In this document: piece by piece, positions 1 through 37,664 of the stretch
How the letters are laid out: every line of letters starts with the position of its first letter
How positions within the stretch are numbered: the first letter of the stretch is position 1
Source: a virus
Taxonomy: Duplodnaviria; Caudoviricetes
IMG/VR virus record: IMGVR_UViG_3300027892_000075
Span: 1-37,664 of that record
Length of the DNA: 37,664 nt
Direction: 5' to 3' (one strand)
Notes under the pieces: model-generated
Told to the model about the DNA's origin: nothing
The model's input: the letters and a program-made list of their open reading frames with translations, nothing else
The model's database searches: none
Translations under genes and position numbers: made by a program

Positions 1-2
1 TG

Positions 3-953
3 CCGTACCTAAAAGAAAAACTAAACTGGAACGACGAAGAGGCATTGTGGTTCGCATTCTTAAACGGCAACACGCAAAACCCAGTTACCAGTTACATACT
101 TCATAAACGATTCCCGAAGCCGGAACAGCACCGAGAGCTGCTGGCGTTCTACCGGGAGAATTACGCACGCCTAGAATTCGATACAGACCGCAGGTACCAT
201 AAAAAGTCGCTAGAAGAGGCAATACAAAGTTACATAGGGCTAGTTGGGAATAACCAGAGAGATTTCTGGTACGGCGCAGCTGCTTGGGGATTCGGGCAGA
301 TGTGGAGAGAGGCCAGCAAGATTGCTACGTTCGGCCGGCTAAGCACCTTCTCATACCTAGAATACTTACGGATAAGCGGAGTACCGTTTGATTGCGACAC
401 GCTATTTATTGACGACATAAGCGGCTCGCGCTCGCACCGAAATGGGTTATGTATAGTCACCGGGCTAGACAGATACGACTGGCACAAATCAAACCCAGAT
501 TTCGACGGGAAATACAGTAACGAATTGTTACAAGGATTAAAGAGCAAAGGCGAAGAGCTGCTAATACAGGCCAAGCAGCGAGCGCAGGGTAAGCCGTGGG
601 AGTATGACGTCTCATACTTCACGCTTGAATCAACACTCTGTACTTACAAGAGCTGGCATAGACCTAACCGGCGTTACCCAAATGTGTATAACGACATGCT
701 GGCCGGGCGCATAAAGAAAAACGAAACGAATTGGCCGGAGGAGGATTTAAGTATCTTCTGGGAGGCAAGAAGGGATTGCCTACCGGCGCACCTAAGAATT
801 GAAGACAGCGCAGACGACTTAGGGCTACACCCGATCAAACAAAACCATTACCGAACAACAGGGCAAGTGATTATGATGGACAAAGAGTATCCGGAGTACG
901 CTAACGATTACAACGACGCAGTAGACAAAGGCAAAATAAGGGAATGGCTATGA
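3..953 (+). CDS. Amino-acid:DNA transferase (aGPT-Pplase2-like, thymine hypermodification); 5'-truncated
   Basis: Frame is open from position 3 (PYLKEKLNWNDEEALWFAFLNG...). Motifs FGRLSTFSYLEYL (HhH-glycosylase-like) and ESTLCTYKSW..RYPNVYND resemble aGPT-Pplase2 proteins. Adjacent to a PLP enzyme and a P-loop kinase. Confidence 0.8.
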   Translation, partial: PYLKEKLNWNDEEALWFAFLNGNTQNPVTSYILHKRFPKPEQHRELLAFYRENYARLEFDTDRRYHKKSLEEAIQSYIGLVGNNQRDFWYGAAAWGFGQMWREASKIATFGRLSTFSYLEYLRISGVPFDCDTLFIDDISGSRSHRNGLCIVTGLDRYDWHKSNPDFDGKYSNELLQGLKSKGEELLIQAKQRAQGKPWEYDVSYFTLESTLCTYKSWHRPNRRYPNVYNDMLAGRIKKNETNWPEEDLSIFWEARRDCLPAHLRIEDSADDLGLHPIKQNHYRTTGQVIMMDKEYPEYANDYNDAVDKGKIREWL

Positions 954-1987
954 CAGATTCAATCTTTCCGGTATTAAGCATAAACCGGGATAAAGTTAAA
1001 TGGGAAGAGCACATGTACGACTACACGCCGGTTGAATTACGCGACGGGATTTGGTGGAAGCGGGAAGACTATTTCGCACCTCTAGGCTACGGCGGCATAA
1101 ACGGAAGTAAACTGCGACAGCTGGTATACCTATTCAACCAATTAGACGTGCCGGGAATTATTACAGGGGCAAGCGTACTAAGTCCACAATTAAGCATGGG
1201 CGCGTTGGTAGCAAAACATTACGGCCTACCGATCACTTGCGTACTGGGCGGCACGAAGCCAGAGACAGCGGTAAGACACGAAAACGTGGCAATCGCAGCT
1301 GACGCAGGAGCAGAGTTTTTATTTGGAAAAGTGGCATACAACCCGGGAATCCAGAGCAACGTAACTAAACTAATGGCAAGACCAGAGTACGAAGGCTATT
1401 ACAGATTGAACTATGGAATTACAGTAGACGATAACGCGACAGATGACGAAGTGAGAGCGTTCCACGAAGTAGGCGCGTATCAGGTACAAAACATACCGGA
1501 AGAAGTAACGCACCTAGCAATAACGGCGGGAAGTTGTAACAGCTGCGTAAGCGTGCTCTATGGATTAGCCAAGTATCGAACAAATGTTCGAAAGGTAACG
1601 CTATTCGGAATCGGTCCAACACGCCTACGCATGATCGAAGAGCGGCTGGCCAAGATTGAACGGGCAACAGGAGGAGTAATACGAGACAAGTACCGGCGTA
1701 AGTACGAACACCATAAAGACCTAGAAGACGAACATCAGACAGACGGCCAGATACTGCTACTACATTACGACTTACACGCAACAAAGTTCAGCGCGTATTC
1801 GGACAAAATGCCGTACCAGAAAAGCGGGATTACATTTCACCCTACCTACGAAGGTAAGGCGTTACAGTACATGGACAAAAACATAGGGGCGTTTGATTGG
1901 TGGAATGACCCAGACGGCAAAACATTGTTCTGGATAGTAGGCAGCGAACCAAAACGGGAGGCAATGAGATGGACACTATCTACCTAA
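944..1987 (+). CDS. PLP-dependent enzyme (fold type II), likely decarboxylase of amino-acid-modified thymine
   Basis: TPVE...WKREDYFAPLGYGGINGSKLRQ (Schiff-base Lys), AGSCNS phosphate-binding loop, HPTYEGK, LFWIVG. Sits between the transferase and the kinase. Start could be 944 or 950. Confidence 0.8.
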   Translation: MAMTDSIFPVLSINRDKVKWEEHMYDYTPVELRDGIWWKREDYFAPLGYGGINGSKLRQLVYLFNQLDVPGIITGASVLSPQLSMGALVAKHYGLPITCVLGGTKPETAVRHENVAIAADAGAEFLFGKVAYNPGIQSNVTKLMARPEYEGYYRLNYGITVDDNATDDEVRAFHEVGAYQVQNIPEEVTHLAITAGSCNSCVSVLYGLAKYRTNVRKVTLFGIGPTRLRMIEERLAKIERATGGVIRDKYRRKYEHHKDLEDEHQTDGQILLLHYDLHATKFSAYSDKMPYQKSGITFHPTYEGKALQYMDKNIGAFDWWNDPDGKTLFWIVGSEPKREAMRWTLST

Positions 1988-2520
1988 TAGGGCAACCGGG
2001 CAGCGGGAAGACGACGCTAACTAAAGAGCTTCAAAAGAATTGGGCAAAGATCAACCTGTACGCAAAGCCATTTAAGTATCAAGAGTACGAAGCGCCAAGA
2101 ATAGGCAAAGTGTATTCGCTGGGCTGGGATAGGGAACATTTCAGCGGAACGGATACGCTGGGTAATACTGTAATTACACTAATGCCACAATTTTACAAAG
2201 ACGCAGAGCAAGACGGGGCAACAATTTACGGAGAAGGCGACAGATTAGCAAGCCGGACATACTTCGACCTAGCAAAGTCGTACGGAAACTTGTACATCTT
2301 TTACCTAAACACAGACGACAGCACCGCAGCTGCCAGAAGAGAAGCCAGAAGCCAAGAGACGGGCAAGACACAAAACCCGTCATGGGCTAAGGGAAGAGCA
2401 ACAAAACACAGAAACCTAGCAAACGAATACGGGGCGATCGCACTACCCGGAGGATTGCTGCCTAGCGAGATCACTCAGGTTATGGCAGACTATTTATCCT
2501 ACGGAAAAGGAAACGCATGA
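1969..2520 (+). CDS. P-loop kinase, 5-hydroxymethyluracil-DNA kinase (5-HMUDK)-like
   Basis: N-terminal Walker A IGQPGSGKTT, FSGTDTL, GEGDRL and C-terminal QNPSWAKGRATK motifs, plus gene context. Confidence 0.8.
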   Translation: MDTIYLIGQPGSGKTTLTKELQKNWAKINLYAKPFKYQEYEAPRIGKVYSLGWDREHFSGTDTLGNTVITLMPQFYKDAEQDGATIYGEGDRLASRTYFDLAKSYGNLYIFYLNTDDSTAAARREARSQETGKTQNPSWAKGRATKHRNLANEYGAIALPGGLLPSEITQVMADYLSYGKGNA

Positions 2521-2987
2521 ACAGGAAAAAAACACCTCCACCGGCGGTGCTAGAGAAGGAAATAAAGATCATAGAATTACGCAGAGCCGGCGTAACGTGG
2601 GAGAAGATCGCCTTAGAAACGGGATTCAAAAACGCAAGCGGGGCGTACAAGATGTACCAGAGAGCCGCAGAGCGCATGGTAAGGCCGCACCTAGAAGAGT
2701 ACCGAGACATACAACTAGACAGGCTGGAACGGCTCCACATGGCGGTATGGCCAAGAGCTAAAGACGGCGACATACGGGCAATAGACGCAGCATTACGAAT
2801 AAGCGACAGGGAAGCAAAATTGTTAGGGCTAGACGCTCCAACAAAGATAACAGCGGAGGTAACAGTCTATGAGGGTCAGCAACTCATTGAGCACACAGCC
2901 AGAATTATTGAACTCATTAGACAATCTCGCGGCGCGCCGGGCAACATGGGAAGTGTTATTAGCGAGACCAGAGCAATTACCGACTAA
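2517..2987 (+). CDS. terS: Terminase small subunit
   Basis: HTH (ELRRAGVTWEKIA), LDRLERL...AIDAALRISDREAKLLGLDAP pattern; directly upstream of TerL. Confidence 0.75.
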   Translation: MNRKKTPPPAVLEKEIKIIELRRAGVTWEKIALETGFKNASGAYKMYQRAAERMVRPHLEEYRDIQLDRLERLHMAVWPRAKDGDIRAIDAALRISDREAKLLGLDAPTKITAEVTVYEGQQLIEHTARIIELIRQSRGAPGNMGSVISETRAITD

Positions 2988-4233
2988 CGATAACGACTGG
3001 ACAGTTTGGCTATACCTAGCCGGGCGCGGAGCTGGCAAAACGCGAACAGCTGCGGAATGGATAGTCTGGCAAGCGCTAACCCAGAATTGGTCACGATGGG
3101 CAGTAATCGCACCTACCTTCGGTGACGTGAGAGATACCTGCGCGGAGGGAGAGTCCGGGCTGATACCGATACTCCATCAGTACGGAGCACTCGATTATTA
3201 CAACAGATCAACGGGAGACATAAGGCTGACTAACGGAAGCCGGATAAAGTTATTCTCAGCTGACGAGCCTGACCGGTTGCGTGGTCCGCAACATCATGGA
3301 GCGTGGTGCGACGAATTAGCGGCATGGAGATACCCGGATACATACGACCAATTACAGTTTGGATTACGCTTAGGAGAGCACCCGAAGACAGTAATTACCA
3401 CTACTCCCCGGCCAATTCCTTTAATTAGACAATTAATTGCTAAGACCGACGGCAGCGTAAAATTAGTTAGAGGCTCGACCTTCGATAACGCGGCCAACCT
3501 AGCGCCAAGCGCACTCGTAGAATTACAGGCCAGATACAACGGAACAAGACTCGGCCGGCAAGAATTATACGGAGAGATACTAGACGACGTAGAGGGAGCA
3601 CTCTGGACAAAGGGAGTGATTGACAGAAACAGAATAGAGAGCGCACCGCCATTAGCACGCATAGCGGTAAGTATTGACCCGGCCGTAACGAATACAAAAG
3701 ACAGCGACGAAACCGGGATTATCGTATTAGGTAGCGACGCAGCTGGCAACGGATACGTTATTGCTGACTACTCATTTAAGGGAAGCCCTAACGAATGGGC
3801 GCAAAAGGCCGTAGCAGTATTCCGAGATCACAAAGCAGATTCAATCCTTGTAGAAGTAAATCAGGGAGGAGACATGGTTAGTGCGGTATTGCGCCAAGTA
3901 GACATGAGCCTACCGATTCAAGAAGTAAGAGCGCACGTCGGAAAGAAGCTGCGCGCCGAACCGGTAGCGGCCATGTACGAGCAAGGCAGAATTAAACACG
4001 TCGGTAAATTCGATAAATTAGAAGAGCAAATGACACTCTGGACACCGGATAGCGCAGATAGCCCGGACAGATTAGACGCAATGGTACAAGGATTTAGTAG
4101 CCTAATTGGAACGAGCAGCGCAGCTAGTTATTTCTCAGCACTAGCAAACTTCTGTACCGGCTGCGGATTACCAATGCCGAAGAGCGCGTCGCGTTGTTTT
4201 AAGTGTGGTACTGCTATGATTACGCAAGCCTGA
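2869..4233 (+). CDS. terL: Terminase large subunit with C-terminal Zn-ribbon
   Basis: Walker A AGRGAGKT, RLRGPQ..WCDE Walker B, TTTP coupling motif, nuclease IDPA..DETG and PDRLDA. Exact start uncertain. Confidence 0.95.
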   Translation: MRVSNSLSTQPELLNSLDNLAARRATWEVLLARPEQLPTNDNDWTVWLYLAGRGAGKTRTAAEWIVWQALTQNWSRWAVIAPTFGDVRDTCAEGESGLIPILHQYGALDYYNRSTGDIRLTNGSRIKLFSADEPDRLRGPQHHGAWCDELAAWRYPDTYDQLQFGLRLGEHPKTVITTTPRPIPLIRQLIAKTDGSVKLVRGSTFDNAANLAPSALVELQARYNGTRLGRQELYGEILDDVEGALWTKGVIDRNRIESAPPLARIAVSIDPAVTNTKDSDETGIIVLGSDAAGNGYVIADYSFKGSPNEWAQKAVAVFRDHKADSILVEVNQGGDMVSAVLRQVDMSLPIQEVRAHVGKKLRAEPVAAMYEQGRIKHVGKFDKLEEQMTLWTPDSADSPDRLDAMVQGFSSLIGTSSAASYFSALANFCTGCGLPMPKSASRCFKCGTAMITQA

Positions 4234-4264: not shown

Positions 4265-6118
4265 ATGGGTCTACGCGGCCGTATCGCAAAAGCAATAGCC
4301 GGAACAGATGTAGAAAAGGCAGCACCGAATTTACCAGCTGGCGCAGTAGTAATGAACGAACAGCAAATGCGCAACGCAGTACCCGGGGCAATCGGCCAGA
4401 ATTACGGAACAGTAACCGCTCTCCCACGAAACCCACTATTAGCAGGAGTTCCATTCGGTCCGGGAATACCAATTACGCCGGGAGCAATCAACCCGGTAAA
4501 CCCACTCACCGGAAGACCAGAACCGCGACGCTACGAATACCAAGTAGCGCAAAACATAAACATTACAGAGACACGCCTAGTACCTTTCAAGACACTACGC
4601 GCAGCTGCCGATCAGATTGACATTCTGCGACGCTGCGTAGAAGTTATTAAGGGAAAAACAAGTGGCCTCGAATGGGACATTGTGCTCGGAAATGACGCAA
4701 GCGAAAAGATCGCAGCGGAAAGCGGCGGCGACCATGTACGCGCAATGATTAAAGCAAGAGAAGAATTAGGCGATGAGATAAACCGGGTTAGGAGCTTCTG
4801 GGAAAACCCAGACAAAGCAAACGGATTAACCTTCGCTGATTGGTTAAACATAGCGCTAGAAGAAATCCTAGTAATTGACGCGTTAGCAATCTGGCCACAA
4901 AAAACAGTAGGCGGCGAACTTTACGGGTTACAGATTTTAGACGGAGCAACAATTAAACCAATGCTCGACGATCGCGGAATGCGGCCAATGCCTCCGCAAG
5001 CTGCTTATCAGCAGATACTTTACGGATTCCCACGCGCAGAGTTCAGCGCTAATCAAGATGACCCGCAAGCAGATGGCGAATTTACTTGCGACGACCTCGC
5101 ATACCTAGTTAAAAACCGCCGTACAACAAGCGTGTACGGATACAGCCCGGTAGAGCGAGCACTACCACTAGCAGACATTTACCTACGCAGACAGCAATGG
5201 ATACGCGCTGAATACACAGATGGCGTACTGCCAGAGCTAATGTTCAGCACCGACGCAACATGGGGTACAAACCCAGACCTATTGCGCGCATGGGAGAACA
5301 TACTTAACGATGACCTAGCCGGCCAGACAGAGCAGCGCAAGCGCGCACGCCTACTACCAACAGGCATTACGCCAATCACTAACGACGCATACGGCGAAAA
5401 GTTTAAAGATACGCTAGATAACTTTCTTATTGAATCAATCTGCGGACACTTCGGGGTACAGCCAACAGAGATTGGCTATAACCCTAAAGGCGGATTAGGG
5501 GGAGCGGGATTCGAAGAAGGCAAAGCCGGAAGCGCAGAAGCCTTAGGCGTACAACCGCTAGTAAATTGGCTTAATAAAATGATAACAAATCTTTCATACG
5601 CTTACTTAGGTATGCCAAGAGAATTAGAATTCAGAATGATGCCAAGCAAGCGCCAAGACGACGAAGCAAGCGCACGCAAAGCGCAGATTGAATTGTTAAG
5701 CGCCGGCAAGACAGTAAACGAGCGACGCAGCGACCTAGGATTACCTTTACTAGATACACCGCAAGCAGACATGCCAATGCTGGTAACGGGAAATACAGTA
5801 TTCCTGTTCTCACCTGACGGAATGATTAACCCGGCAGAAATGGCAAGCGCGCCGCAGCTGGACTCAGACGGCCAAGACGCAATTTCAGAGACACTCATAC
5901 CGGAAGAAGAAGCGCCGGAAGAAGAAGCGCCGCAAGCTGCGCCGGAAGAAGTAGCGGCAGAAGTAAAAGCATTCATGAAGTGGGCGGCAAAGGGAACACG
6001 CAAACGAGAGTTTGAGTTCAAGATGATTGACCCGATAGTGGGCGAAGCGCTTAACCGCTGCGCAGTAGAAGGCGACCTCGATACGGCTAGGTCATTGGCA
6101 AAGGCCTACCTAGCATGA
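4265..6118 (+). CDS. Portal protein
   Basis: Follows TerL; 617 aa; YGYSPVE, ICGHFGVQPTEIG and TVNERRSDLGL portal-type motifs. Confidence 0.9.
   Translation: MGLRGRIAKAIAGTDVEKAAPNLPAGAVVMNEQQMRNAVPGAIGQNYGTVTALPRNPLLAGVPFGPGIPITPGAINPVNPLTGRPEPRRYEYQVAQNINITETRLVPFKTLRAAADQIDILRRCVEVIKGKTSGLEWDIVLGNDASEKIAAESGGDHVRAMIKAREELGDEINRVRSFWENPDKANGLTFADWLNIALEEILVIDALAIWPQKTVGGELYGLQILDGATIKPMLDDRGMRPMPPQAAYQQILYGFPRAEFSANQDDPQADGEFTCDDLAYLVKNRRTTSVYGYSPVERALPLADIYLRRQQWIRAEYTDGVLPELMFSTDATWGTNPDLLRAWENILNDDLAGQTEQRKRARLLPTGITPITNDAYGEKFKDTLDNFLIESICGHFGVQPTEIGYNPKGGLGGAGFEEGKAGSAEALGVQPLVNWLNKMITNLSYAYLGMPRELEFRMMPSKRQDDEASARKAQIELLSAGKTVNERRSDLGLPLLDTPQADMPMLVTGNTVFLFSPDGMINPAEMASAPQLDSDGQDAISETLIPEEEAPEEEAPQAAPEEVAAEVKAFMKWAAKGTRKREFEFKMIDPIVGEALNRCAVEGDLDTARSLAKAYLA
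5900..5957 (+). repeat. Imperfect 15-bp coding tandem repeat (CCGGAAGAAGAAGCG) in the acidic portal tail
   Basis: Encodes PEEEAPEEEAPQAAPEEVA. Confidence 0.7.
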
Positions 6119-7605
6119 GTTGGGGCGCACATAAAGCTGATGTGCGCATAGCGGCTAAAAACTCGGTAACAATGCGCGCAGCACTAAGAGCCAGCATTAA
6201 CGCGCAGACAATTTACGAGGCGTATCAAGAGACGCAGCCGTTTGTTACTGATAACAATACGCAAGATCGCACCCGGGCAAGAGCGTGGGCGATGCTTCAC
6301 GTCAAGATAAACCCGGAACCAATTAAGGCCGCGCTAATAAAAATTTACGCTGACGGATTCTTGCTAGGGCTAGACGCAAGCAAAGAAGCGGTCGGCCAAG
6401 CAGTCAGGGCGCAAGAAAAGGCCAAGACAAAGGCAATCAAAGACGAATTAATGAGCATGGCTGCTGGAGACGGCTCTGACTACGTTGATTGGAATAACTG
6501 GAAGCCGGGCAACAGAGCTGCCTCGCTCCTATACCGGCCTACTGGCGCGTTCGAGAAACTATTAAGCGACGCTGGCATTACAAGTAAGAAGATCGCGGCT
6601 AACGGGTACGACAGAATTGGAACGGCGCTAGCGGATTCAATCGCTGCGGGATTCAGCCCGGCCAGAGCTGCGAAAGTAATTACAGAGAAGATAGGCGACC
6701 CGGCCAGAGCGCTAACTATTGCGATCACCGAGCAAAACCGGGCAATGAGCCTAGCAAGCATGGAGAATTACGCTAAGTATGGGCTAGAAAAGATCGAATG
6801 GAGCGGGGCAAACCCTTGCGACATTTGCGCGCCTAACGAAGGGCAAGTAGTAACGCTAGGGGAACCATTTAACAGCGGAGACACAGAGCCGCCGGTACAC
6901 CCGAACTGCCGGTGCGCGGTATTGCCTGTAATAGACGAAGCGTTCTACGCTGACCCGAATACAACCGGAATGGACTTAGTCTCACCGCTAGGGGCAACAG
7001 CGGAAGCAACTGCCGAAGAAATAGCACGAATGACTCCTGATGAAGTAATGGGATACCAGCGCGAAATGGGATTCTCTAGCAACACAGTTCCGGAAAGACA
7101 GGCAAAAGCGGTATTAGAATACCGAGGCGCTACATACGACCCTATAAACGCATACCTACGCACCGGCGGAGAGTTTGTCGGCGGAGTGCCATTACCAACA
7201 CTTAAAAAATACATCGGTGAAATTACAACAGCGATTGACGCAGCGCCAAGATTGCCGGCTCCTATTACAACCTATCGAGGAGTTAGCGGCGCGTACGCCG
7301 AAACGATAGGCGCATACAAACCCGGAACAATTTACACAGACAAAGGATTCACGTCTACCTCCCTAAACGGCGGCCAAGCGTCATTTTTTGCTGACCTCAG
7401 AAATAACCAACAATTCCTCAGAATAGAAATAGACGTACCAGCTGGCACTAAAGGTCTCGACATGACTGGATTCTTCTCAGAAAGAAACCCGAAAACAGGC
7501 AAAATAAAAAACCCGGGCGAACAAGAGTGGCTATTACCTAGAGATTCTAAATTTGAAGTAGTATCCAATGACGGGAAGACGATGAAAGTGAGACTAATAC
7601 CATGA
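6115..7605 (+). CDS. MuF/SPP1-gp7-like minor head protein fused to a C-terminal ADP-ribosyltransferase (R-S-E class)
   Basis: MuF motifs CDIC and PPVHPNCRC; ART motifs Y..INAYLR, TYRG, DKGFTSTS, EQEWLLPR. Confidence 0.9.
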   Translation: MSWGAHKADVRIAAKNSVTMRAALRASINAQTIYEAYQETQPFVTDNNTQDRTRARAWAMLHVKINPEPIKAALIKIYADGFLLGLDASKEAVGQAVRAQEKAKTKAIKDELMSMAAGDGSDYVDWNNWKPGNRAASLLYRPTGAFEKLLSDAGITSKKIAANGYDRIGTALADSIAAGFSPARAAKVITEKIGDPARALTIAITEQNRAMSLASMENYAKYGLEKIEWSGANPCDICAPNEGQVVTLGEPFNSGDTEPPVHPNCRCAVLPVIDEAFYADPNTTGMDLVSPLGATAEATAEEIARMTPDEVMGYQREMGFSSNTVPERQAKAVLEYRGATYDPINAYLRTGGEFVGGVPLPTLKKYIGEITTAIDAAPRLPAPITTYRGVSGAYAETIGAYKPGTIYTDKGFTSTSLNGGQASFFADLRNNQQFLRIEIDVPAGTKGLDMTGFFSERNPKTGKIKNPGEQEWLLPRDSKFEVVSNDGKTMKVRLIP

Positions 7606-18933: not shown

Positions 18934-20052
18934 ATGCCAACAGTAGCCTCTCTAAATAATTACTCGTTTGCCTTTAACGGATACATCTTCGGCGGAGCTG
19001 ATTCCTGCCATCAAGTTTATGCGGTAGACGGGCTAGAAGCGCTACCTAACATACGAAATCAAGACGATAACCGAGGCTACTCAGACGGCATGTTTACCGG
19101 CAACGATTTCCTATCAGGCCGCGACATTACAATTACAATTTTAACCCTAGGCAATAGCAGCACCGCCACGATTTCAAGCGCAACGGCAACCGGAACCGGA
19201 GTAATTACTTACAACACTTCAACGGCGCACAAACTAATTACAGGCCAAAAGGTTACGATCACCGGAGTGCTCTCAACCGGCAATCCAACCGGAACAGCTG
19301 GAGCAGGATTTAACCAGATTTTACAAGAAGCGACAGTATTAACCACTACTCAATTCACAATACCGGTAACGCTAACGGACACCCGGACAAGCGGCGGAAC
19401 TATGAACATGAGTTCAAGCGCGCAGACTAATTACAATTTGTTACAAAGAAATGTCCTACCGCAGACAACCGGAACAACAGTATTACAGTTCCAGATGAGT
19501 ACGGCAGAAGGGCTACAAAGAGTAAATGCTCGTACCCGCGCAAACCGAACCATGGTAGACCCGGATTTTACATACGGATACATCAAGAGCCAATACACCT
19601 TCTTCTGCCCAGACCCACGCTATTACGACGACGCGCTACAAACGGGAACGCTGGCAATTTCTAACCCGCTAGGCCGTACCTACAACCGCGTGTACCCTCT
19701 GGTATACGGTGGCGGCTCACTAAGCACCTCGACAACAGTATTGAATAACGGCTGGGCAACGACTTACCCAACTATTACAATGAATGGTCCTATTACAAAC
19801 CCAACTTTCGGTAACATCACGCAGGGTTATTACATAACAATTTCAGGTACTTACACAAATACAGATACAGTAGTAATTAACTTAGACGAAAAGTTAGTAA
19901 CGATCAACGGAGTATCCGGCCGCAACCTAGTCGCAGGCGGCTCAAACTGGTTCTCAGCGCCGCCGGGAACTAACTCGTTTTACATGACCGGTACGGGTAC
20001 ACTAGGCGGTACAACAGCTGCTACCGTTACTTGGCGCTCGGCATACATTTAG
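18934..20052 (+). CDS. Distal tail protein (Dit-like) with inserted domain
   Basis: Follows tape measure; FFCPDPRYY, NNGWATTYP and WRSAYI motifs. Confidence 0.75.
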   Translation: MPTVASLNNYSFAFNGYIFGGADSCHQVYAVDGLEALPNIRNQDDNRGYSDGMFTGNDFLSGRDITITILTLGNSSTATISSATATGTGVITYNTSTAHKLITGQKVTITGVLSTGNPTGTAGAGFNQILQEATVLTTTQFTIPVTLTDTRTSGGTMNMSSSAQTNYNLLQRNVLPQTTGTTVLQFQMSTAEGLQRVNARTRANRTMVDPDFTYGYIKSQYTFFCPDPRYYDDALQTGTLAISNPLGRTYNRVYPLVYGGGSLSTSTTVLNNGWATTYPTITMNGPITNPTFGNITQGYYITISGTYTNTDTVVINLDEKLVTINGVSGRNLVAGGSNWFSAPPGTNSFYMTGTGTLGGTTAATVTWRSAYI

Positions 20053-20061
20053 GAGATAAAA

Positions 20062-21126
20062 ATGGCATTACGGACACCGCCAAGCTGGTTACAAAACGGC
20101 TCGCACCCGGCAGAAAATGATCGTCTCACTACGCAAGCAATTTACGCTACGACGGGAATAGTCGGCACATCTTCATTAGCGGTAACACAGAATTCACCCG
20201 CTGGAATGTCAGTATTGATTGCGGCTGGCTGGGGAGCAATCGTAGGTACAACGCAAGCCAACATGGGCGTGTACCAGTTTTACAACGACGCAACAGCAAC
20301 GGCAACCATTACTACGGCTAACCCGTCAAACCCAAGAATTGACCGCGTATGTATTACCGTATCCGACGCTTACTACACAGGAGCACTAAACACAGTAGCA
20401 ATTAACGTAGTCGCCGGAACCGCAGCTGCCTCGCCGGTCGCGCCTGCTATACCTGATAACTCAATTTCTTTAGCAACTATCGCGGTAGGCGCTGGCGTAA
20501 CTTCAATTCTAACAGCCAACATTACCGATACAAGAGCAAATGTAACAACCAATTTACCTACTGGCGATTTAACCGAAGTGGCCTCTGGAACTGGTATTAC
20601 CGTGACAAGCGGAACGGGTCCAATTCCGTCTGTGGCTATTAATACAGCCGTAACAGCTGACTTAACAACAGCGCAAACATTGACTAATAAAACTCTTACT
20701 GCCCCGGCGGTCAACGAAGCAGTCTTTACAGATGGAGTAGTCAAAGGCTTAGAAGAAGACGTCAATGTAGTCGCAGCCGCCGCAACCGGAACAATTAACT
20801 TCGAAGTTTCAACTGCCTCGGTTTGGTATTACACGACAAACGCGACAGCAAATCACACACTAAACTTCCGTTACAGTTCTGGCGCAACATTAAACAGCAA
20901 ACTTGCGGTAGGCGACGCGATCACTTTGGTATGGCTTAACACAAATGGCGCAACCGCTTACTATCCAAACGTCATTCAGATTGACGGAACAACAGTAACG
21001 CCAAAAGTTCCGGCAGCAATTACCGCAGGCAACGCGAGCGCGATTGACGCTTACACTTTCACCATCATCAAAACCGCAGCAACGCCTACCTACATCGTGC
21101 TTGAATCGCAAACGAAGTTCGCATAA
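20062..21126 (+). CDS. Minor tail / tail fibre protein
   Basis: ANPSNPRIDRV motif, QTLTNKTLT repeat, Thr/Ala rich. Confidence 0.7.
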   Translation: MALRTPPSWLQNGSHPAENDRLTTQAIYATTGIVGTSSLAVTQNSPAGMSVLIAAGWGAIVGTTQANMGVYQFYNDATATATITTANPSNPRIDRVCITVSDAYYTGALNTVAINVVAGTAAASPVAPAIPDNSISLATIAVGAGVTSILTANITDTRANVTTNLPTGDLTEVASGTGITVTSGTGPIPSVAINTAVTADLTTAQTLTNKTLTAPAVNEAVFTDGVVKGLEEDVNVVAAAATGTINFEVSTASVWYYTTNATANHTLNFRYSSGATLNSKLAVGDAITLVWLNTNGATAYYPNVIQIDGTTVTPKVPAAITAGNASAIDAYTFTIIKTAATPTYIVLESQTKFA

Positions 21127-21136
21127 AGGATAGATC

Positions 21137-22045
21137 GTGCCAATAATTTCTACATTAGCAAACGGGTCGGGGCGTGGTTACAGGGCAGGAGGAGCGCTGC
21201 CTCCTACAAGCATTGACTACCTAGTGATTGCGGGTGGCGGTGGAACCAATAGCCCAAACGCGAACTCTCGCGGTGGTGGTGGAGCTGGTGGTTATCTCAC
21301 ATCTTCTTTGGCCGTTACTGCTGGAACTTCTTACACAGTTACTGTTGGCGCTGGTTCTGACGGATCATCTAACGGATCAGACTCAGTTTTTGCAAGCATT
21401 ACCACATCAGGCGGCGGAATGGTACGAACAGTCAACCCGGGTTCGGTGCTAACAATCGGTAGTGGCGGTTCGGGCGCTGGCGATTTTAGTGTTCCTTCAA
21501 CGGGTAACACACCCGCAACATCTCCAAGTCAAGGAAATGCTGGTGGGCTTGGTGCCGCAAATCCGGGTAGCGGAGGAGCAGGAGGAGGCGGAGGAGCAGG
21601 TAGTGTTGGTGGAACTGGCGCGTCAGGCTCACCTGCAACGGGAGGCAACGGCGGTTCAGGAGCTACATCTTCAATTAACGGAACTTCAACTGCGCGCGCG
21701 GGTGGTGGAGGCGGTGGTGCCTACAACAACTCAACGCCTTCGGCCGTAACTCCGGGAACCGGTAGCGCTGGTGGTGGTCCAGCGGGTGGTTACTTGTCAG
21801 CGTTAAACCAAACATCGTCTAAGAATGCGACTGCGAATACGGGCGGTGGTGGTGGCGGAAATGGAACAGGCGCAAGTGGCGCTCCGTATGTTTCCAATGG
21901 TGGTTCGGGAATAGTTATTCTTGCCTACCCTGATTCTTTTGCTGCTTTAACTTCAATTAGCGGTGGACTAACTTATTCTCAACCAACAAGAGCTGGCTAC
22001 CGTGTTTACCAATTCACAAGCGGAACAGGTACGGTGACAATCTAA
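21137..22045 (+). CDS. Glycine-rich tail-associated protein
   Basis: IDYLVIAGGGG...GGGGAGG...ANTGGGGGG...GGSGIVIL..YP glycine-rich domain pattern. Confidence 0.75.
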   Translation: MPIISTLANGSGRGYRAGGALPPTSIDYLVIAGGGGTNSPNANSRGGGGAGGYLTSSLAVTAGTSYTVTVGAGSDGSSNGSDSVFASITTSGGGMVRTVNPGSVLTIGSGGSGAGDFSVPSTGNTPATSPSQGNAGGLGAANPGSGGAGGGGGAGSVGGTGASGSPATGGNGGSGATSSINGTSTARAGGGGGGAYNNSTPSAVTPGTGSAGGGPAGGYLSALNQTSSKNATANTGGGGGGNGTGASGAPYVSNGGSGIVILAYPDSFAALTSISGGLTYSQPTRAGYRVYQFTSGTGTVTI

Positions 22046-22416
22046 TGGCTCATTACGCTTTAATGAATCAAAATAATGTTGTTCTGCAAGTAATAACAGG
22101 AAGAAACGAAGACGAGGTCGTTGACGGGATTACGGATTGGGAAGCCCATTACGCAGAAGTAACTGGTTTAAAGTGTAAACGAACTTCCTACAACACTAAC
22201 TCTGGTCGCCATGCTTTAGGAGGCACTCCTTACAGAATAACTTTTGCTGCGATTGGTTTGGTTTATGATGAAAACCTAGATGGTTTTATTCATCAACAGC
22301 CATTTCCTTCTTGGATACTAGATACAACTACTGGCAGCTGGAGCGCACCAACACCATCTCCAGATAATGATTTACCTTATACTTGGAATGAAAAAAATTT
22401 ATCTTGGGAGTTATGA
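22045..22416 (+). CDS. Conserved small partner of glycine-rich tail proteins
   Basis: MAHYA..NVVLQVI, KRTSYN, QPFPSWILD..WSAPTP..Y.WNE motifs. Confidence 0.7.
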   Translation: MAHYALMNQNNVVLQVITGRNEDEVVDGITDWEAHYAEVTGLKCKRTSYNTNSGRHALGGTPYRITFAAIGLVYDENLDGFIHQQPFPSWILDTTTGSWSAPTPSPDNDLPYTWNEKNLSWEL

Positions 22417-23130
22417 GTAAGTTTTTTTAGACCAAACCTTCTTCATGTAATGGTTAACAAGAGTTCCGCCAAAATTCCTATCTTCTAATTTTTGATACTC
22501 GCCATCTTTTAAGTATGAGTATTCTGCTTTCCAATCAGATCGCTTAAAAGGAATAACCTGAACCATAGGAGTACCTTTCTCGAGTATGCCTTCAAAATCA
22601 TTTGTTAACCAAACAGGCGGCAAGATTTCAAGATTATTTTTATCAGTGTCAATGACTGCTGGTATTGCTTGAACACCAGTTTCTCGATAGCCAAAAGGTT
22701 GAGTGATTAAACATGAGTAACCTTTGGGTGTAATAATCCTCCACTTATTCATAAACTTAAATACCTGTTCATTGTAGCCAACAGGAGTCTGAACATCTCT
22801 TGCTTGATTTCCGTGTTCCATAAACACTTGTTCTGTTGTACGCCAAGTAATTAATTTATTCAGACCTTCGTTCTTAACTTGCACATCAGCCCACAAAGGG
22901 ATTATGTAACCCGAAGTAATGGCGTCTAGCATCGGTACGCATTTTTTAGGTCCAGCATTTGATACACGATCTTTAATAATTAACTTTTTACCTTTAGGGT
23001 TATCTTCACTTTTACTATAAGGAGTCATAGCCTTCCACCAATCAGGCACAGCCTGACTCGCCGGGTACGGGCGGCCTGCTACTTCCCAGCCGTATTCGTC
23101 TCTCGCCTCAAATTTAATTGTTCGACTCAT
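22411..23130 (-). CDS. Hypothetical protein (DUF6065-like), inverted within the tail module
   Basis: GGAGG RBS before ATG at 23130; KKCVPMLDAITSGYII, TPKGYSCLITQP, IDTD, KGTPMVQVIPFKR motifs. Confidence 0.7.
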   Translation of the reverse strand: MSRTIKFEARDEYGWEVAGRPYPASQAVPDWWKAMTPYSKSEDNPKGKKLIIKDRVSNAGPKKCVPMLDAITSGYIIPLWADVQVKNEGLNKLITWRTTEQVFMEHGNQARDVQTPVGYNEQVFKFMNKWRIITPKGYSCLITQPFGYRETGVQAIPAVIDTDKNNLEILPPVWLTNDFEGILEKGTPMVQVIPFKRSDWKAEYSYLKDGEYQKLEDRNFGGTLVNHYMKKVWSKKTYS

Positions 23131-23177
23131 TTCGCCTCCAAGATAAGTTGAGAAGAGATTACTGGTATTCTGCGGTA

Positions 23178-24281
23178 ATGGCAACTTACCGATACTTGTT
23201 TGCTGACCTCGCTACAAATGCGATCTTGGCAGAGCTGCCAATCACCGGGGTAAGTTTTACGCAACAACTAAATACCTCGGGAACCTTAACGGGTCGGCTA
23301 TTACTCTCAGGAGTAAACGCAGCTGGCTTAAACGTCGCTAACGGAACAATACCCGGCCGAACTGTCGTATACGTTGACCGAGACGGCACGCTAGTTTGGG
23401 GCGGAATAATCTGGGGGCGGGAATACAGTTCAACAAGCCAGACGCTAACATTCCAAGCAAGAGAATTCATGTCTTATTTCGAGCGACGCAGAATTATTAG
23501 CACTCAGGCATACACAAACATTGACCAATTAGATTTAGCGCAAGCCCTAATCAGCAACGCGCAAGGCGAGCCGTACGGAAACATCGGGTTACTTTACAAT
23601 CAAGACCCGGCCTCTACTACTACCTCGGGAAACCTAGTGACGCGAACCTATTACGGCTACGAATACAAGACAGTATTCTCGGCGGTTCAAGACCTATCAA
23701 AGCAATTAGACGGATTCGACTACGAGATTAATGTTTATTACGACGGAGGCAACAACCCGGCCAGATCGTTTAACACTTACTACCCACGCGTCGGAACAGA
23801 TTATTCCAGCACTAACGCGACAGCGCCGGTATTTCAATTACCGGGCAACATGGTGGAATACAATTACCCGGAAGACGCGTCAATCGCAGCAAACACAATT
23901 TACGCGTTAGGAGCTGGCAGCAACGAAGGCAAGCTGATTCAGACAGCAACCGACGCAACTAAGTTTACAGACGGCTGGGCGCTGCTAGAAGATCAAGCCA
24001 ATTACTCTGACATAACTGATACAACAGTATTAGCAGGATTAGCGCAAGGCCAGATCACAGCGGTTTCTTACCCGCCAACAACACTCAAAGTGGTAGCGCC
24101 GCCATCACAAAACCCAGTATTCGGAACTTACCGCGTAGGCGACGAAGTGCGAATTATTATTACAGACAACAGATTCCCTACGACGCTAGACGCAATTTAC
24201 CGCCTAGTCGCGCTAAGTGTTACACCGGGAGAAGACAGCCCGGAAAGAATTACATTAACGCTAACGACGGGAACGTACTAA
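23178..24281 (+). CDS. Minor tail protein (ReqiPepy6 gp37-like hub)
   Basis: YRYLFADL..LAELP, VYVDRDGTLVWGGIIWGR and GDEVRI motifs; start placed at ATG 23178. Confidence 0.75.
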   Translation: MATYRYLFADLATNAILAELPITGVSFTQQLNTSGTLTGRLLLSGVNAAGLNVANGTIPGRTVVYVDRDGTLVWGGIIWGREYSSTSQTLTFQAREFMSYFERRRIISTQAYTNIDQLDLAQALISNAQGEPYGNIGLLYNQDPASTTTSGNLVTRTYYGYEYKTVFSAVQDLSKQLDGFDYEINVYYDGGNNPARSFNTYYPRVGTDYSSTNATAPVFQLPGNMVEYNYPEDASIAANTIYALGAGSNEGKLIQTATDATKFTDGWALLEDQANYSDITDTTVLAGLAQGQITAVSYPPTTLKVVAPPSQNPVFGTYRVGDEVRIIITDNRFPTTLDAIYRLVALSVTPGEDSPERITLTLTTGTY

Positions 24282-27080: not shown

Positions 27081-27247
27081 TGGAGAAAACAATCGAGATA
27101 CGACTAGCCGAACAAAGAGACGCAATACGGCAAGCAATTATTGACGAGCCAGAGCCGGACACGATGAGCTGGCCAAGCAAAGTGATTTGGGAAATAGCAA
27201 GAATCAGATTTACCGCAATCGTAAACGAGGCCGGGGGAGGGAAATGA
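27080..27247 (+). CDS. Small 55-aa hypothetical protein (not in the ORF track)
   Basis: TAATG and ATGA overlaps on both sides; MEKTIEIRLAEQRDAIRQAII... Confidence 0.6.
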   Translation: MEKTIEIRLAEQRDAIRQAIIDEPEPDTMSWPSKVIWEIARIRFTAIVNEAGGGK

Positions 27248-27960
27248 GACCAGCAAAACTACTAACGCAAAACAGCGAGCTGCGACCGGAGGGTATTTTT
27301 AATTGGTCACTACCAGCGTTCGCAATTCAATTAACTAACGGCCAAAACTTTAACGTGTGCCCTAACGCAGGAGCGTGCGCAAGTTTCTGCTATGCGCGCA
27401 ACGGCACTTATTTATTCAGCAACGTCAGAGGGCGACACATACAAAACTTGGAATACACGCTAGAAGACCCAGAAGGCTGGTTTGGGCAAATGCTCGAAGA
27501 AGTCCAGAAACCGAAGATGGCCGGAAAGTTTATACGGATACATGACGCGGGAGATTTCTACTCAAAAGAGTATTTAGAACTATGGCTAAAAATTGCCCGG
27601 CTAACACCGGCGGTAACTTTCTATTGCTACACAAAAGAAGTCGCCATGTTCAAAGAGATCGTCGAGCCGAACTGCCCGGACAATTTTAAATACCTTTATT
27701 CAATGGGCGGAAAACAAGATCACCTAATCAACAAAGAAACAGACCGGCACGCAGAAGTGTTCCCAGATGACGCGGCAATACTAGACGCGGGATACGGCAA
27801 TCAAGACGCAAGCGACCTATTAGCAATTACCTTGCCTACAAACAAGATTGGCATACCGGCAAACAACATCAGACATTTCAACAAGAAGATGGCGCGCCGG
27901 ACATTTGGTCAATTACAAGAAGAGCGCGACGACAAGAAGGCCAACAAACTTACCCGTTAG
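27244..27960 (+). CDS. GP88-like protein (Cys-rich, radical-SAM-like)
   Basis: WSLPA, CPNAGACASFCYA, FIRIHDAGDFYS, FYCYTK; GGAGG RBS before ATG 27244. Confidence 0.75.
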   Translation: MRPAKLLTQNSELRPEGIFNWSLPAFAIQLTNGQNFNVCPNAGACASFCYARNGTYLFSNVRGRHIQNLEYTLEDPEGWFGQMLEEVQKPKMAGKFIRIHDAGDFYSKEYLELWLKIARLTPAVTFYCYTKEVAMFKEIVEPNCPDNFKYLYSMGGKQDHLINKETDRHAEVFPDDAAILDAGYGNQDASDLLAITLPTNKIGIPANNIRHFNKKMARRTFGQLQEERDDKKANKLTR

Positions 27961-28540
27961 TAATCCAAGACTTACCGCCGGTATCTTGGAGGGCAAACTG
28001 GACAGAGCCGCCGGAGTAAATGTCGTACTTGATAGCGGTATTGACAGCTGCTTCAACGACTGTAACAGCTTCTTCCCAATCTTCAATTTCCGCAACGCCA
28101 AGAGCATGGGCAGCACCGAGGGCTAATTCCATGCCAGAGCCAGTTACATAGACCCGATCAGAAGTACGCTCAACGCCATAAGCCTCGTCAATCAAATACA
28201 AAACGCCATTAGCGGCAACAATAAACTCGTTATCGTGCGAGGCAATGTCGCCGTCATCTTTCATGTCATACCCGGCTGATTGAAAACACTTACGCAGAGC
28301 TGGCACAAAGACATTGACCATAAATTTATCAAGATTAGATTTAGGGGGAGGAGGCGGATTAAAAGAATGTTGAATTAAATTCATGCCGCGAACAAGGCCA
28401 GCGGCGGCAACAAGGTATTTCCCGTTCTGCGCAATCTTTCCCATTGGAGAGCAATCAGCGGAAAGATGATACGACGTAGTTTGCGAGTCGCCGGCGATCA
28501 AACACCAGTTCTCATTCTGAACGGCTATCAAAGTTGTCAT
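27950..28540 (-). CDS. Proteasome-beta/HslV-like Ntn hydrolase
   Basis: M-T-T N-terminal nucleophile, AGDSQ, K33-equivalent GKI, GSG, DIYSGG. Confidence 0.8.
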   Translation of the reverse strand: MTTLIAVQNENWCLIAGDSQTTSYHLSADCSPMGKIAQNGKYLVAAAGLVRGMNLIQHSFNPPPPPKSNLDKFMVNVFVPALRKCFQSAGYDMKDDGDIASHDNEFIVAANGVLYLIDEAYGVERTSDRVYVTGSGMELALGAAHALGVAEIEDWEEAVTVVEAAVNTAIKYDIYSGGSVQFALQDTGGKSWITNG

Positions 28541-28583
28541 GCCTAATCCTCTCATACGACGCGCCAAAAACTCAGATTACAAG

Positions 28584-37345: not shown

Positions 37346-37539
37346 TACACGAAGTCGTACTAACTGAGATGAGTTCGCAGCAAGTCGCGGAATACCTAGG
37401 AATAACGATCAACAACCTACGGCAGATTCAGCACCGCAAAACTCTACAATGGAAACGCCGGGAATGGCGAAATGTGTATTACGAGCGCGCAGAAGTAGAG
37501 GCATACAAAATCAAGCGCGACCAGCGTAAGCAACGCTAA
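37339..37539 (+). CDS. Small HTH (MerR/excisionase-like) DNA-binding protein
   Basis: MSSQQVAEYLGITINNLRQ...YERAEVEAY. Confidence 0.7.
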   Translation: MVIHEVVLTEMSSQQVAEYLGITINNLRQIQHRKTLQWKRREWRNVYYERAEVEAYKIKRDQRKQR

Positions 37540-37548
37540 TGTATCCGT

Positions 37549-37664
37549 ATGGCAATAGTCATTACGGAAGAGGCCAGCGTCACCGACATTGACGAGGCCA
37601 TGCGTCACATACAAAGTATGCTGGCGGTTCCGGGCATTGAAAAAAACCGGCGCAATCTTCTATT
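37549..37664 (+). CDS. Hypothetical protein, 3'-truncated
   Basis: ATG at 37549, frame open to the window end. Confidence 0.5.
   Translation, partial: MAIVITEEASVTDIDEAMRHIQSMLAVPGIEKNRRNLL

What the first reader, a model, noticed from the sequence alone, without database searches (positions are those of the whole stretch)
3..2520. Thymine hypermodification cassette in a small actinophage with no visible 5hmU supply
Seen: three overlapping genes with motifs of an amino-acid:DNA transferase (aGPT-Pplase2), a PLP enzyme and a 5hmU-DNA kinase. Known: in proteobacterial phages such as ViI and M6 these families phosphorylate 5hmU in DNA, attach Ser or Gly and decarboxylate it. Those phages make 5hmdUMP with a thymidylate-synthase-like hydroxymethylase and encode their own polymerase. 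Seen: this window runs from packaging through structure, lysis and replication with no DNA polymerase, thymidylate synthase homologue or dCMP deaminase, and uses an HTH initiator. Inference: the hydroxymethyl substrate is made post-replicatively, e.g. by a TET/JBP dioxygenase just outside the window acting on T or on 5mC, giving a site-selective amino-modified base. With no adjacent canonical radical SAM gene visible, the serine route (aminoethoxymethyl-type product) is the simplest guess.
Basis: partly seen in the sequence, partly recalled or inferred. Interest (0 to 1): 0.85.

Follow-up and report, generated by a model that had tools for sequence, protein, structure and literature searches.

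The report
Dioxygenase-fed thymine hypermodification cassette, freshwater phage
A lake phage, likely of Actinobacteria, carries three real thymine-modifying genes whose missing first step is a TET/JBP dioxygenase lying just off the end of the contig, so it likely turns some thymines of finished DNA into a bulky amino-ether base; this pathway design is already in print, so it is a good new example, not a new principle.

Summary
Observation confirmed: 3-953 amino-acid:DNA transferase (ADDT, 4e-20, catalytic Glu/Cys kept), 944-1987 PLP enzyme (39% to ViI gp226, same Lys), 1969-2520 P-loop kinase (PF18751); no polymerase, thymidylate synthase, dCMP deaminase or C5-methylase hit. The contig is a ~39.95 kb genome broken inside the cassette. 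All 10 of 15 close relatives with enough upstream DNA have TET/JBP directly before the transferase, behind two ParB genes. Public contigs >99% identical to the window run on into that TET gene. The transferase and PLP enzyme are ViI-type, not M6-type, and no M6-type radical SAM exists, so the likely product is 5-NeOmdU (about 60%); donor and T-oxidation are untested. The design is published: predicted by Lee 2022, ParB-activated T-dioxygenases shown by O'Toole 2026, annotated in phage Tonitrus. This scan already reported it on at least five other genomes. Still open: this actinophage TET subclade looks untested, it has two ParB paralogues, and the transferase pocket differs from ViI. The genome has no ATAT and 6 TGCA sites, so the modification is not a blanket shield. 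New member of a known kind; interest 0.3.

The parts
3..953 (+). Amino-acid:DNA transferase (AADT / aGPT-Pplase2), ViI (serine) branch; 5' end cut by the contig (36 aa missing). Catalytic Glu209 (nt 627-629) and Cys213 (nt 639-641), counted from nt 3.
   Evidence: PF18724 4e-20; 27% to ViI gp247, E 7e-21, no significant match to M6 gp51, PaMx11 gp46 or PhiW-14 gp109; groups with ViI gp247 at 100/100
944..1987 (+). PLP-dependent enzyme, orthologue of the ViI gp226 O-SerT decarboxylase; Schiff-base Lys56 (nt 1109-1111) aligns with ViI K92
   Evidence: 39% over 380 columns, E 3e-78 to gp226; E 0.17 to M6 gp52; phrog_3650
1969..2520 (+). P-loop kinase (Ploopntkinase3), predicted 5hmU-DNA kinase; Walker A GQPGSGKT
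   Evidence: PF18751 5e-23; profile match to M6 gp54/PaMx11 gp49/ViI gp243, hhalign 95.2%, E 2.5e-8
2517..2987 (+). Putative small terminase subunit, ATGA-coupled to the kinase (function inferred from position before TerL)
   Evidence: (phrog_645)
2869..4233 (+). Terminase large subunit, directly behind the cassette
   Evidence: PF03237 1.5e-24, PF17289 8.8e-17
37549..37664 (+). Start of the ~83-aa ORF that in relatives precedes ParB1-ParB2-TET/JBP; marks the other side of the ~2,286-bp assembly gap that holds ParB1, ParB2, TET/JBP and the AADT N-terminus
   Evidence: 96% over 27 aa to L002 orf; gap 2,280-2,419 bp in 8 of 8 relatives with both anchors; public contigs continue from here into ParB1

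Best explanation
The three genes are the back half of a six-gene cassette (ParB, ParB, TET/JBP, transferase, PLP enzyme, kinase) that likely modifies thymine after host-driven replication: the dioxygenase, probably switched on by ParB, would oxidise some T to 5hmU, the kinase would phosphorylate it, the transferase would likely attach serine through its side-chain oxygen, and the PLP enzyme would decarboxylate it to 5-(2-aminoethoxy)methyl-dU (5-NeOmdU). Shown: gene identities, catalytic residues, gene order, absence of a pre-replicative supply. Inferred from characterised homologues: every chemical step, ParB dependence, the serine donor. The modification is likely partial and sequence-selective, and likely blocks some host nucleases but not all.
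For: TET/JBP (PF12851; H176-x-D178, H226, R240 present; model pLDDT 82 with top fold matches CcTet, NgTET1, TET2) lies directly before the transferase in 10 of 15 close relatives, the other 5 having 155 bp or less upstream. A 1,806-nt contig in run X1 fits window 1-1059 with 4 differences and, in matching register, the L001 TET gene from codon 72 on; a 1,029-nt contig in X2 does the same. The gap (2.29 kb) is filled by these genes. No TS, polA, dCMP deaminase or Radical_SAM hit in 5 of 5 relatives searched per family, among them one complete genome with terminal repeats; C5-methylase in 1 of 5 only, 5 kb away. Transferase shares ViI's L139, D88 and R238 and lacks the Gly-pocket K227/Y238 and the diamine-pocket G227/D238 (15599 numbering). 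PMC13229309: ParB-associated phage dioxygenases next to AADT and PF18751 kinases oxidise T in DNA, up to 35% in E. coli.
Against: The transferase is only 27% identical to ViI gp247, and several pocket positions differ from it (T vs W227, S vs K230, G vs N25, Y vs D243; alignment-dependent), so the donor may not be serine. The kinase is PF18751, not the HMUDK families of M6 gp54 or ViI gp243, and pairwise BLAST to those is not significant. By eye, this TET subclade differs from all tested 5mYOX sequences I read (parts 1-2 of 4 of Dataset S11), and several tested ParB-linked enzymes were inactive. Tested 5mYOXs also oxidise 5mC in vitro. The ViI branch in the tree is long and flagged. The own-genome TET was seen only as aligned contigs, not as a translated sequence.
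Confidence: 0.6

Rival explanations
1. Same TET-fed route, but the transferase uses another donor with a free alpha-amine left for the PLP enzyme (for example threonine, cysteine or homoserine), giving a base not yet described.
For: 27% identity to gp247 and different pocket residues; PMC13458397 shows that two pocket changes switch donors and that enzymes in one cluster can differ. Cluster B4 mycobacteriophage Fortunato has this transferase type without an adjacent PLP gene.
Against: The decarboxylase is a clear gp226 orthologue (39%, E 3e-78) and travels with this transferase type in the window, L043, L113 and Montesquieu.
Confidence: 0.22
2. The dioxygenase acts mainly on 5mC (made by a host or phage methylase), and the cassette builds an amino-modified cytosine.
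For: Tested phage T-dioxygenases also oxidise 5mC in vitro; one relative (G001) has a short C5-methylase.
Against: No C5-methylase in the window or in 4 of 5 relatives; 5mC-type phage TETs sit beside their methylase; all characterised AADTs in the papers read act on 5-phosphomethyl-dU.
Confidence: 0.07
3. M6-like route: glycine transfer, isomerisation by the GP88-family Fe-S protein at 27187-27960, decarboxylation to 5-NedU.
For: GP88 gene with a CX5CX3C motif in the window and in 2 of 5 relatives.
Against: GP88 is absent from the complete cassette-bearing relative G003, has no similarity to M6 gp53, lies 10 kb or more from the cassette; the Gly-pocket K/Y residues are missing; PLP enzyme is not M6-type.
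Confidence: 0.03
4. Known pre-replicative route: a dUMP hydroxymethylase and polymerase lie in the missing DNA.
For: Montesquieu pairs the same transferase and PLP types with a TS-like hydroxymethylase and polA.
Against: The gap is 2.29 kb and is filled by ParB, ParB and TET; no TS or polA in 5 of 5 relatives.
Confidence: 0.01
5. The cassette works but little of the DNA is modified or the product stops early (5hmU or phospho-5hmU), with a packaging or regulatory role more than a defensive one.
For: Close relatives L028-L030 keep ParB, ParB, TET and kinase but lack transferase and PLP genes; carriers still purge T-containing restriction-type sites; cassette is coupled to TerS/TerL.
Against: All catalytic residues are kept and the genes are 85-88% conserved and intact across 15 relatives.
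Confidence: 0.07

Closest known systems
ParB-dependent phage T-dioxygenase clusters (5mYOX clade C1, e.g. 5mYOX176/ParB176; O'Toole et al. 2026, PMC13229309)
   Same: TET/JBP with adjacent ParB, no neighbouring C5-methylase, linked AADT (PF18724), PF18751 kinase and terminase; C-terminal extension after the last conserved Cys; a two-ParB contig (166) is in their set.
   Different: By eye a different TET subclade (SRTFGMAPRK / WTSGV motifs, short insertion), closest to actinophage proteins (Tonitrus 51%, Nigel 45%). Their paper stops at 5hmU; downstream chemistry and a PLP enzyme are not treated in the parts read.
Salmonella phage ViI 5-NeOmdU pathway (gp67/gp243 kinases, gp247 serine:DNA transferase, gp226 decarboxylase; Lee et al. 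2022, PMC8989533)
   Same: Orthologous transferase (27%) and PLP enzyme (39%), same catalytic Glu/Cys and Lys, no radical SAM needed.
   Different: ViI makes 5hmdU before replication and has its own polymerase; here 5hmU would be made in DNA by a dioxygenase; kinase is another Pfam family; genes are one compact cassette beside the terminase.
TET_JBP-linked hypermodification contigs, Fig. 2 sequences 22-25 of Lee et al. 2022
   Same: Lack a dUMP hydroxymethylase and encode TET_JBP beside kinase and transferase; T predicted as substrate.
   Different: I could not see the figure, so whether one of them has exactly TET+AADT+PLP+kinase is not checked.
Rhodococcus phage Tonitrus (PMC11955845) and cluster B4 mycobacteriophages (Fortunato)
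   Same: ParB-TET/JBP-AADT-kinase directly before terminase in actinophages; TET 51% and 43-44%.
   Different: Tonitrus has the M6/PhiW-14-branch transferase and no PLP orthologue; Fortunato has this transferase type (43%) but no adjacent PLP gene; both have one ParB; neither is chemically tested in what I read.

Membership tests
ParB-dependent phage T-dioxygenase cluster (5mYOX clade C1) | TET/JBP gene with HxD...H...R active site | tested here: met
   In relatives. In the window's own population as aligned contigs covering codons 72-287.
ParB-dependent phage T-dioxygenase cluster (5mYOX clade C1) | Adjacent ParB-like gene | tested here: met
   Two ParB_N genes, 43% alike, directly upstream; own-population contigs run from the window's 3' end into ParB1.
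ParB-dependent phage T-dioxygenase cluster (5mYOX clade C1) | No neighbouring C5-methyltransferase; linked AADT and PF18751 kinase | tested here: met
ParB-dependent phage T-dioxygenase cluster (5mYOX clade C1) | C-terminal extension beyond the last conserved Cys | tested here: met
   C254 invariant, followed by a helix 254-280
ParB-dependent phage T-dioxygenase cluster (5mYOX clade C1) | Phylogenetic placement in clade C1 and a C1-type variable insertion | not tested
   Published sequences were read but not aligned; by eye the motifs differ and the insertion is shorter.
ParB-dependent phage T-dioxygenase cluster (5mYOX clade C1) | T-to-5hmU oxidation that needs ParB | not testable with these tools
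   needs co-expression and LC-MS
ViI 5-NeOmdU pathway | gp247-type transferase with catalytic Glu and Cys | tested here: met
ViI 5-NeOmdU pathway | gp226-type PLP decarboxylase with Schiff-base Lys | tested here: met
   K56 = ViI K92
ViI 5-NeOmdU pathway | 5hmU-DNA kinase | tested here: inconclusive
   PF18751, not PF18747/PF18748; profile match 95.2%; ViI gp67 not compared
ViI 5-NeOmdU pathway | Serine as donor | tested here: inconclusive
   shares L139, D88, R238 with gp247, differs at 25, 227, 230, 243
ViI 5-NeOmdU pathway | Pre-replicative 5hmdU supply (dUMP hydroxymethylase, own polymerase) | tested here: not met
   so it works like ViI downstream but is not a member of the full ViI system
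M6 5-NedU pathway | Glycine-pocket Lys and Tyr in the transferase | tested here: not met
   T and R at these positions
M6 5-NedU pathway | gp53-type radical SAM isomerase | tested here: not met
   GP88 dispensable in G003

The most novel reading that the evidence does not exclude
An untested actinophage subclade of T-dioxygenase, needing two different ParB paralogues together, feeds a transferase whose pocket has drifted from ViI's to a new donor, so the phage carries an undescribed base at selected T contexts; the sites this phage has purged (ATAT, TGCA) mark contexts the base does not protect, while one gene slot in this phage family swaps at least five tailoring modules behind the same ParB-TET start.
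Probability: 0.2. Interest if true: 0.55.

Novelty: new member of a known kind. Interest (0 to 1): 0.3.

Why it matters
The principle is not new, but the full chain from unmodified T to a finished amino-ether base using only DNA-level enzymes was not found reconstituted in the papers my searches returned. This compact 5-kb cassette is a practical kit to do that in E. coli, with natural controls in the same slot (kinase only; other transferases; transferase plus FAD enzyme; no cassette). It would show how a small phage that relies on host polymerase gains hypermodified DNA, and would give enzymes that put primary amines on ordinary DNA.

Tried and rejected
Exact pattern from the 3' end found nothing in viral contigs; pattern from the 5' end found only the window's own record in metagenome contigs (L018). 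No terminal repeat in the window. GP88 as M6-like isomerase: rejected. ATAT absence as a footprint of the cassette: rejected, since ATAT is purged in 5 of 17 TET-bearing and 6 of 18 cassette-free loci. Fewer purged T-palindromes in carriers (mean 1.4, n=17, vs 3.1, n=18; naive P 1e-4) is not accepted as shown: the TerL tree (33 rows, G002 and G003 left out) gives about three independent contrasts, one a tie; loci were hand-picked from 80 by length of 10 kb or more and a visible slot, and L086 was left out by oversight. PDB sequence searches gave nothing for the transferase and only E 0.8 to ACC deaminase for the PLP enzyme. Iyer et al. 2013 is not held: seen only as cited in PMC8989533 and PMC8256090. 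Paper search was off target; one search returned 0; one search found no paper with ATAT among methylated-motif studies. Host: scan of species genomes gave two MAG contigs (Actinomycetota; Rhodoluna) with 68-69% TET relatives that look like phage DNA, a weak host hint only. No complex prediction was run, since binding is not claimed.

Full report
Observation. Of 62 ORFs scanned, the first hits ADDT (PF18724, E 4e-20), the second PALP weakly (E 0.0077) and phrog_3650, the third Ploopntkinase3 (PF18751, E 5e-23); none hits a DNA polymerase, thymidylate synthase, dCMP deaminase or C5-methylase. tblastn with the M6 and ViI supply genes found nothing in the window or five relatives while two controls rang. 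WhiB, 48% GC, freshwater runs and actinophage relatives point to a freshwater actinobacterial host; that is inference.

The missing part. The held genome is the window alone. A scan of viral contigs gave 15 relatives at 78-99% identity in the transferase. Ten have enough upstream DNA and all ten carry a 287-aa TET/JBP gene directly before the transferase; in the nine that reach far enough, two ParB_N genes (43% alike) precede it. The window's 3' end (37549-37664) is the start of the small ORF that precedes ParB1 in relatives, so the contig is a circularly permuted genome broken in this cassette; the gap is 2,280-2,419 bp in 8 of 8 relatives with both anchors, giving about 39.95 kb. For the window's own population: in run X1 a 1,806-nt contig (depth 25.7) lies on window 1-1059 with 4 differences, and a contig of the same length and depth lies on L001 3591-4620 in matching register, that is on the TET gene from codon 72; a 1,029-nt contig in X2 behaves alike. 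Records are numbered per answer, so their identity rests on length, depth and register. In four runs, contigs whose loose ends match window 37518-37547 exactly continue into ParB1. These runs may include the source sample, so they show linkage, not spread. The TET keeps H176-x-D178, H226 and R240; its model (pLDDT 82) matches CcTet, NgTET1 and TET2 best. Five relatives, one complete with terminal repeats, gave 0 of 5 for thymidylate synthase, polA and Radical_SAM, 0 of 5 for dCMP deaminase (L043 in place of L003) and 1 of 5 for a C5-methylase, which lies 5 kb from the cassette.

Which chemistry. Against characterised enzymes fetched from annotated records, the transferase matches ViI gp247 (27%, E 7e-21) and not M6 gp51, PaMx11 gp46 or PhiW-14 gp109; the PLP enzyme matches ViI gp226 (39%, E 3e-78) and not M6 gp52. 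In an 11-row tree the window groups with ViI, Fortunato and Montesquieu at 100/100, with a warning for the long ViI branch. The essential Glu and Cys (PMC8989533) are E209 and C213; K56 aligns with ViI K92. At the donor-pocket positions defined in PMC13458397 the window has neither the glycine pair (K227/Y238) nor the diamine pair (G227/D238); it shares L139, D88 and R238 with ViI but differs at 25, 227, 230 and 243. A PLP decarboxylase needs a free alpha-amine, which an O-linked serine leaves and an N-linked glycine does not without the radical SAM step (PMC8989533). The GP88 gene with a CX5CX3C motif (27187-27960) is unrelated to M6 gp53 and missing from the complete relative G003. The kinase is tied to proven 5hmU kinases only at profile level (95.2%). 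Best reading: T to 5hmU (TET with ParB), to 5-phosphomethyl-dU, to O-seryl-T, to 5-NeOmdU; about 0.6, with about 0.22 for another donor.

What is known. PMC8989533 (passages and sections 16 and 21 read, figure not seen) describes metavirome contigs that lack the hydroxymethylase and carry TET_JBP, and predicts T oxidation. PMC13229309 (parts 1-5 of 7, Dataset S2 part 1, Dataset S11 parts 1-2, SI part 3 read) shows ParB-activated, sequence-selective T-dioxygenases consistently linked to AADT and P-loop kinase genes, up to 35% of T in E. coli, some pairs inactive, activity also on 5mC in vitro. PMC11955845 (part 1 of 2 read) names the same kind of cassette in Rhodococcus phage Tonitrus. PMC8256090 and PMC11472151 were seen as passages; PMC13458397 as abstract, passages and sections 33, 37, 38, 45. 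Iyer 2013 was not available. In the cultured-phage collection 105 records have a homologue of this TET, mostly actinophages. Earlier notes of this scan report the same design on at least five other genomes; I reached the reading before that look-up. So this is a new member of a known kind. It works like ViI downstream but fails ViI membership on the 5hmU supply; it meets the gene-context features of the ParB-dependent class, with clade placement untested. My searches returned no paper that reconstitutes TET, kinase, transferase and PLP enzyme together or measures the base in such a phage; unseen supplements and figures could change that.

Beyond the finding. Among 80 TerL relatives the slot before TerS holds different modules behind ParB-TET: ViI-type transferase, PLP and kinase (L043); kinase only (L028-L030); Tonitrus-type transferase and kinase (L041), plus an FAD enzyme (L048, L062); an unassigned 312-336-aa gene without kinase (L031, L032, L036); a ParB-N6/N4-methylase fusion (L035); or nothing (L059, L079). 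The window has no ATAT in 37,664 bp (about 71 expected) and 6 TGCA (about 153 expected), while its closest relatives purge GATC or ACGT instead. Such purging is family-wide and not caused by the cassette, but it shows that carriers still need to avoid some T-containing sites, which fits partial, context-selective modification. Carriers purge fewer such words than non-carriers (1.4 vs 3.1), yet with only about three independent contrasts this is a lead, not a result.

Verdict. Real, correctly guessed, and already described in kind. Interest 0.3; the value is as a compact test kit and for the open points (donor, two ParBs, untested TET subclade).

Noticed in passing
window 1-37664: ATAT is wholly absent (0 vs about 71 expected) and TGCA nearly so (6 vs about 153; 4 of the 6 lie in the tail-fibre region 21391-22880); CCWGG and GGGCC/GGCCC are also absent; GATC is normal although close relatives G002-G005 have none. 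Looks like restriction-site avoidance after a host switch; no paper with an ATAT motif came up in one search.
   Followed up: partly
L028-L030, L031, L032, L036, L041, L043, L048, L062, L035, L114 (slot before TerS): One gene slot swaps at least five tailoring modules behind ParB-TET, including a kinase-only version and 312-336-aa genes without Pfam hit (glycosyltransferase-like by my impression only), some with a HAD-like 148-aa neighbour.
   Followed up: partly
TerL-anchored loci: TET carriers purge fewer T-containing 4-bp palindromes (mean 1.4, n=17) than non-carriers (3.1, n=18), mainly ACGT, AGCT and TCGA; confounded by kinship.
   Followed up: partly
window 27187-27960: GP88-family gene (PF17338, E 1e-50) with a CX5CX3C motif, patchy among relatives (2 of 5); function unknown.
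   Followed up: partly
window 6115-7605: Head-morphogenesis (MuF) protein fused to a C-terminal ADP-ribosyltransferase domain (PF04233, PF03496 E 7e-18).
   Followed up: no
window 1-37664: Strong coding-strand AT skew (A 0.32, T 0.19; T at third codon positions about 0.09-0.21 in most genes), weaker in the tail-fibre region 20001-24000; this close clade has skew 0.2-0.3 against about 0.1 in most farther TerL relatives.
   Followed up: no
window 27950-28567 (-) and 22411-23184 (-): Two of the few minus-strand genes: an HslV-like peptidase (phrog_1040) and a DUF6065-like gene (phrog_7084).
   Followed up: no
L016 800-1621 (Mycobacterium phage Fortunato) and other cluster B4 records: TET/JBP homologues (43-45%) are often annotated as queuine tRNA-ribosyltransferase and the kinase as small terminase; these phages have the ViI-type transferase without an adjacent PLP gene.
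   Followed up: partly
L017 (Glutamicibacter phage Montesquieu): Same transferase and PLP types, but paired with a TS-like hydroxymethylase, clade 1 Pplase and polA: the tailoring module runs on either 5hmU supply.
   Followed up: partly
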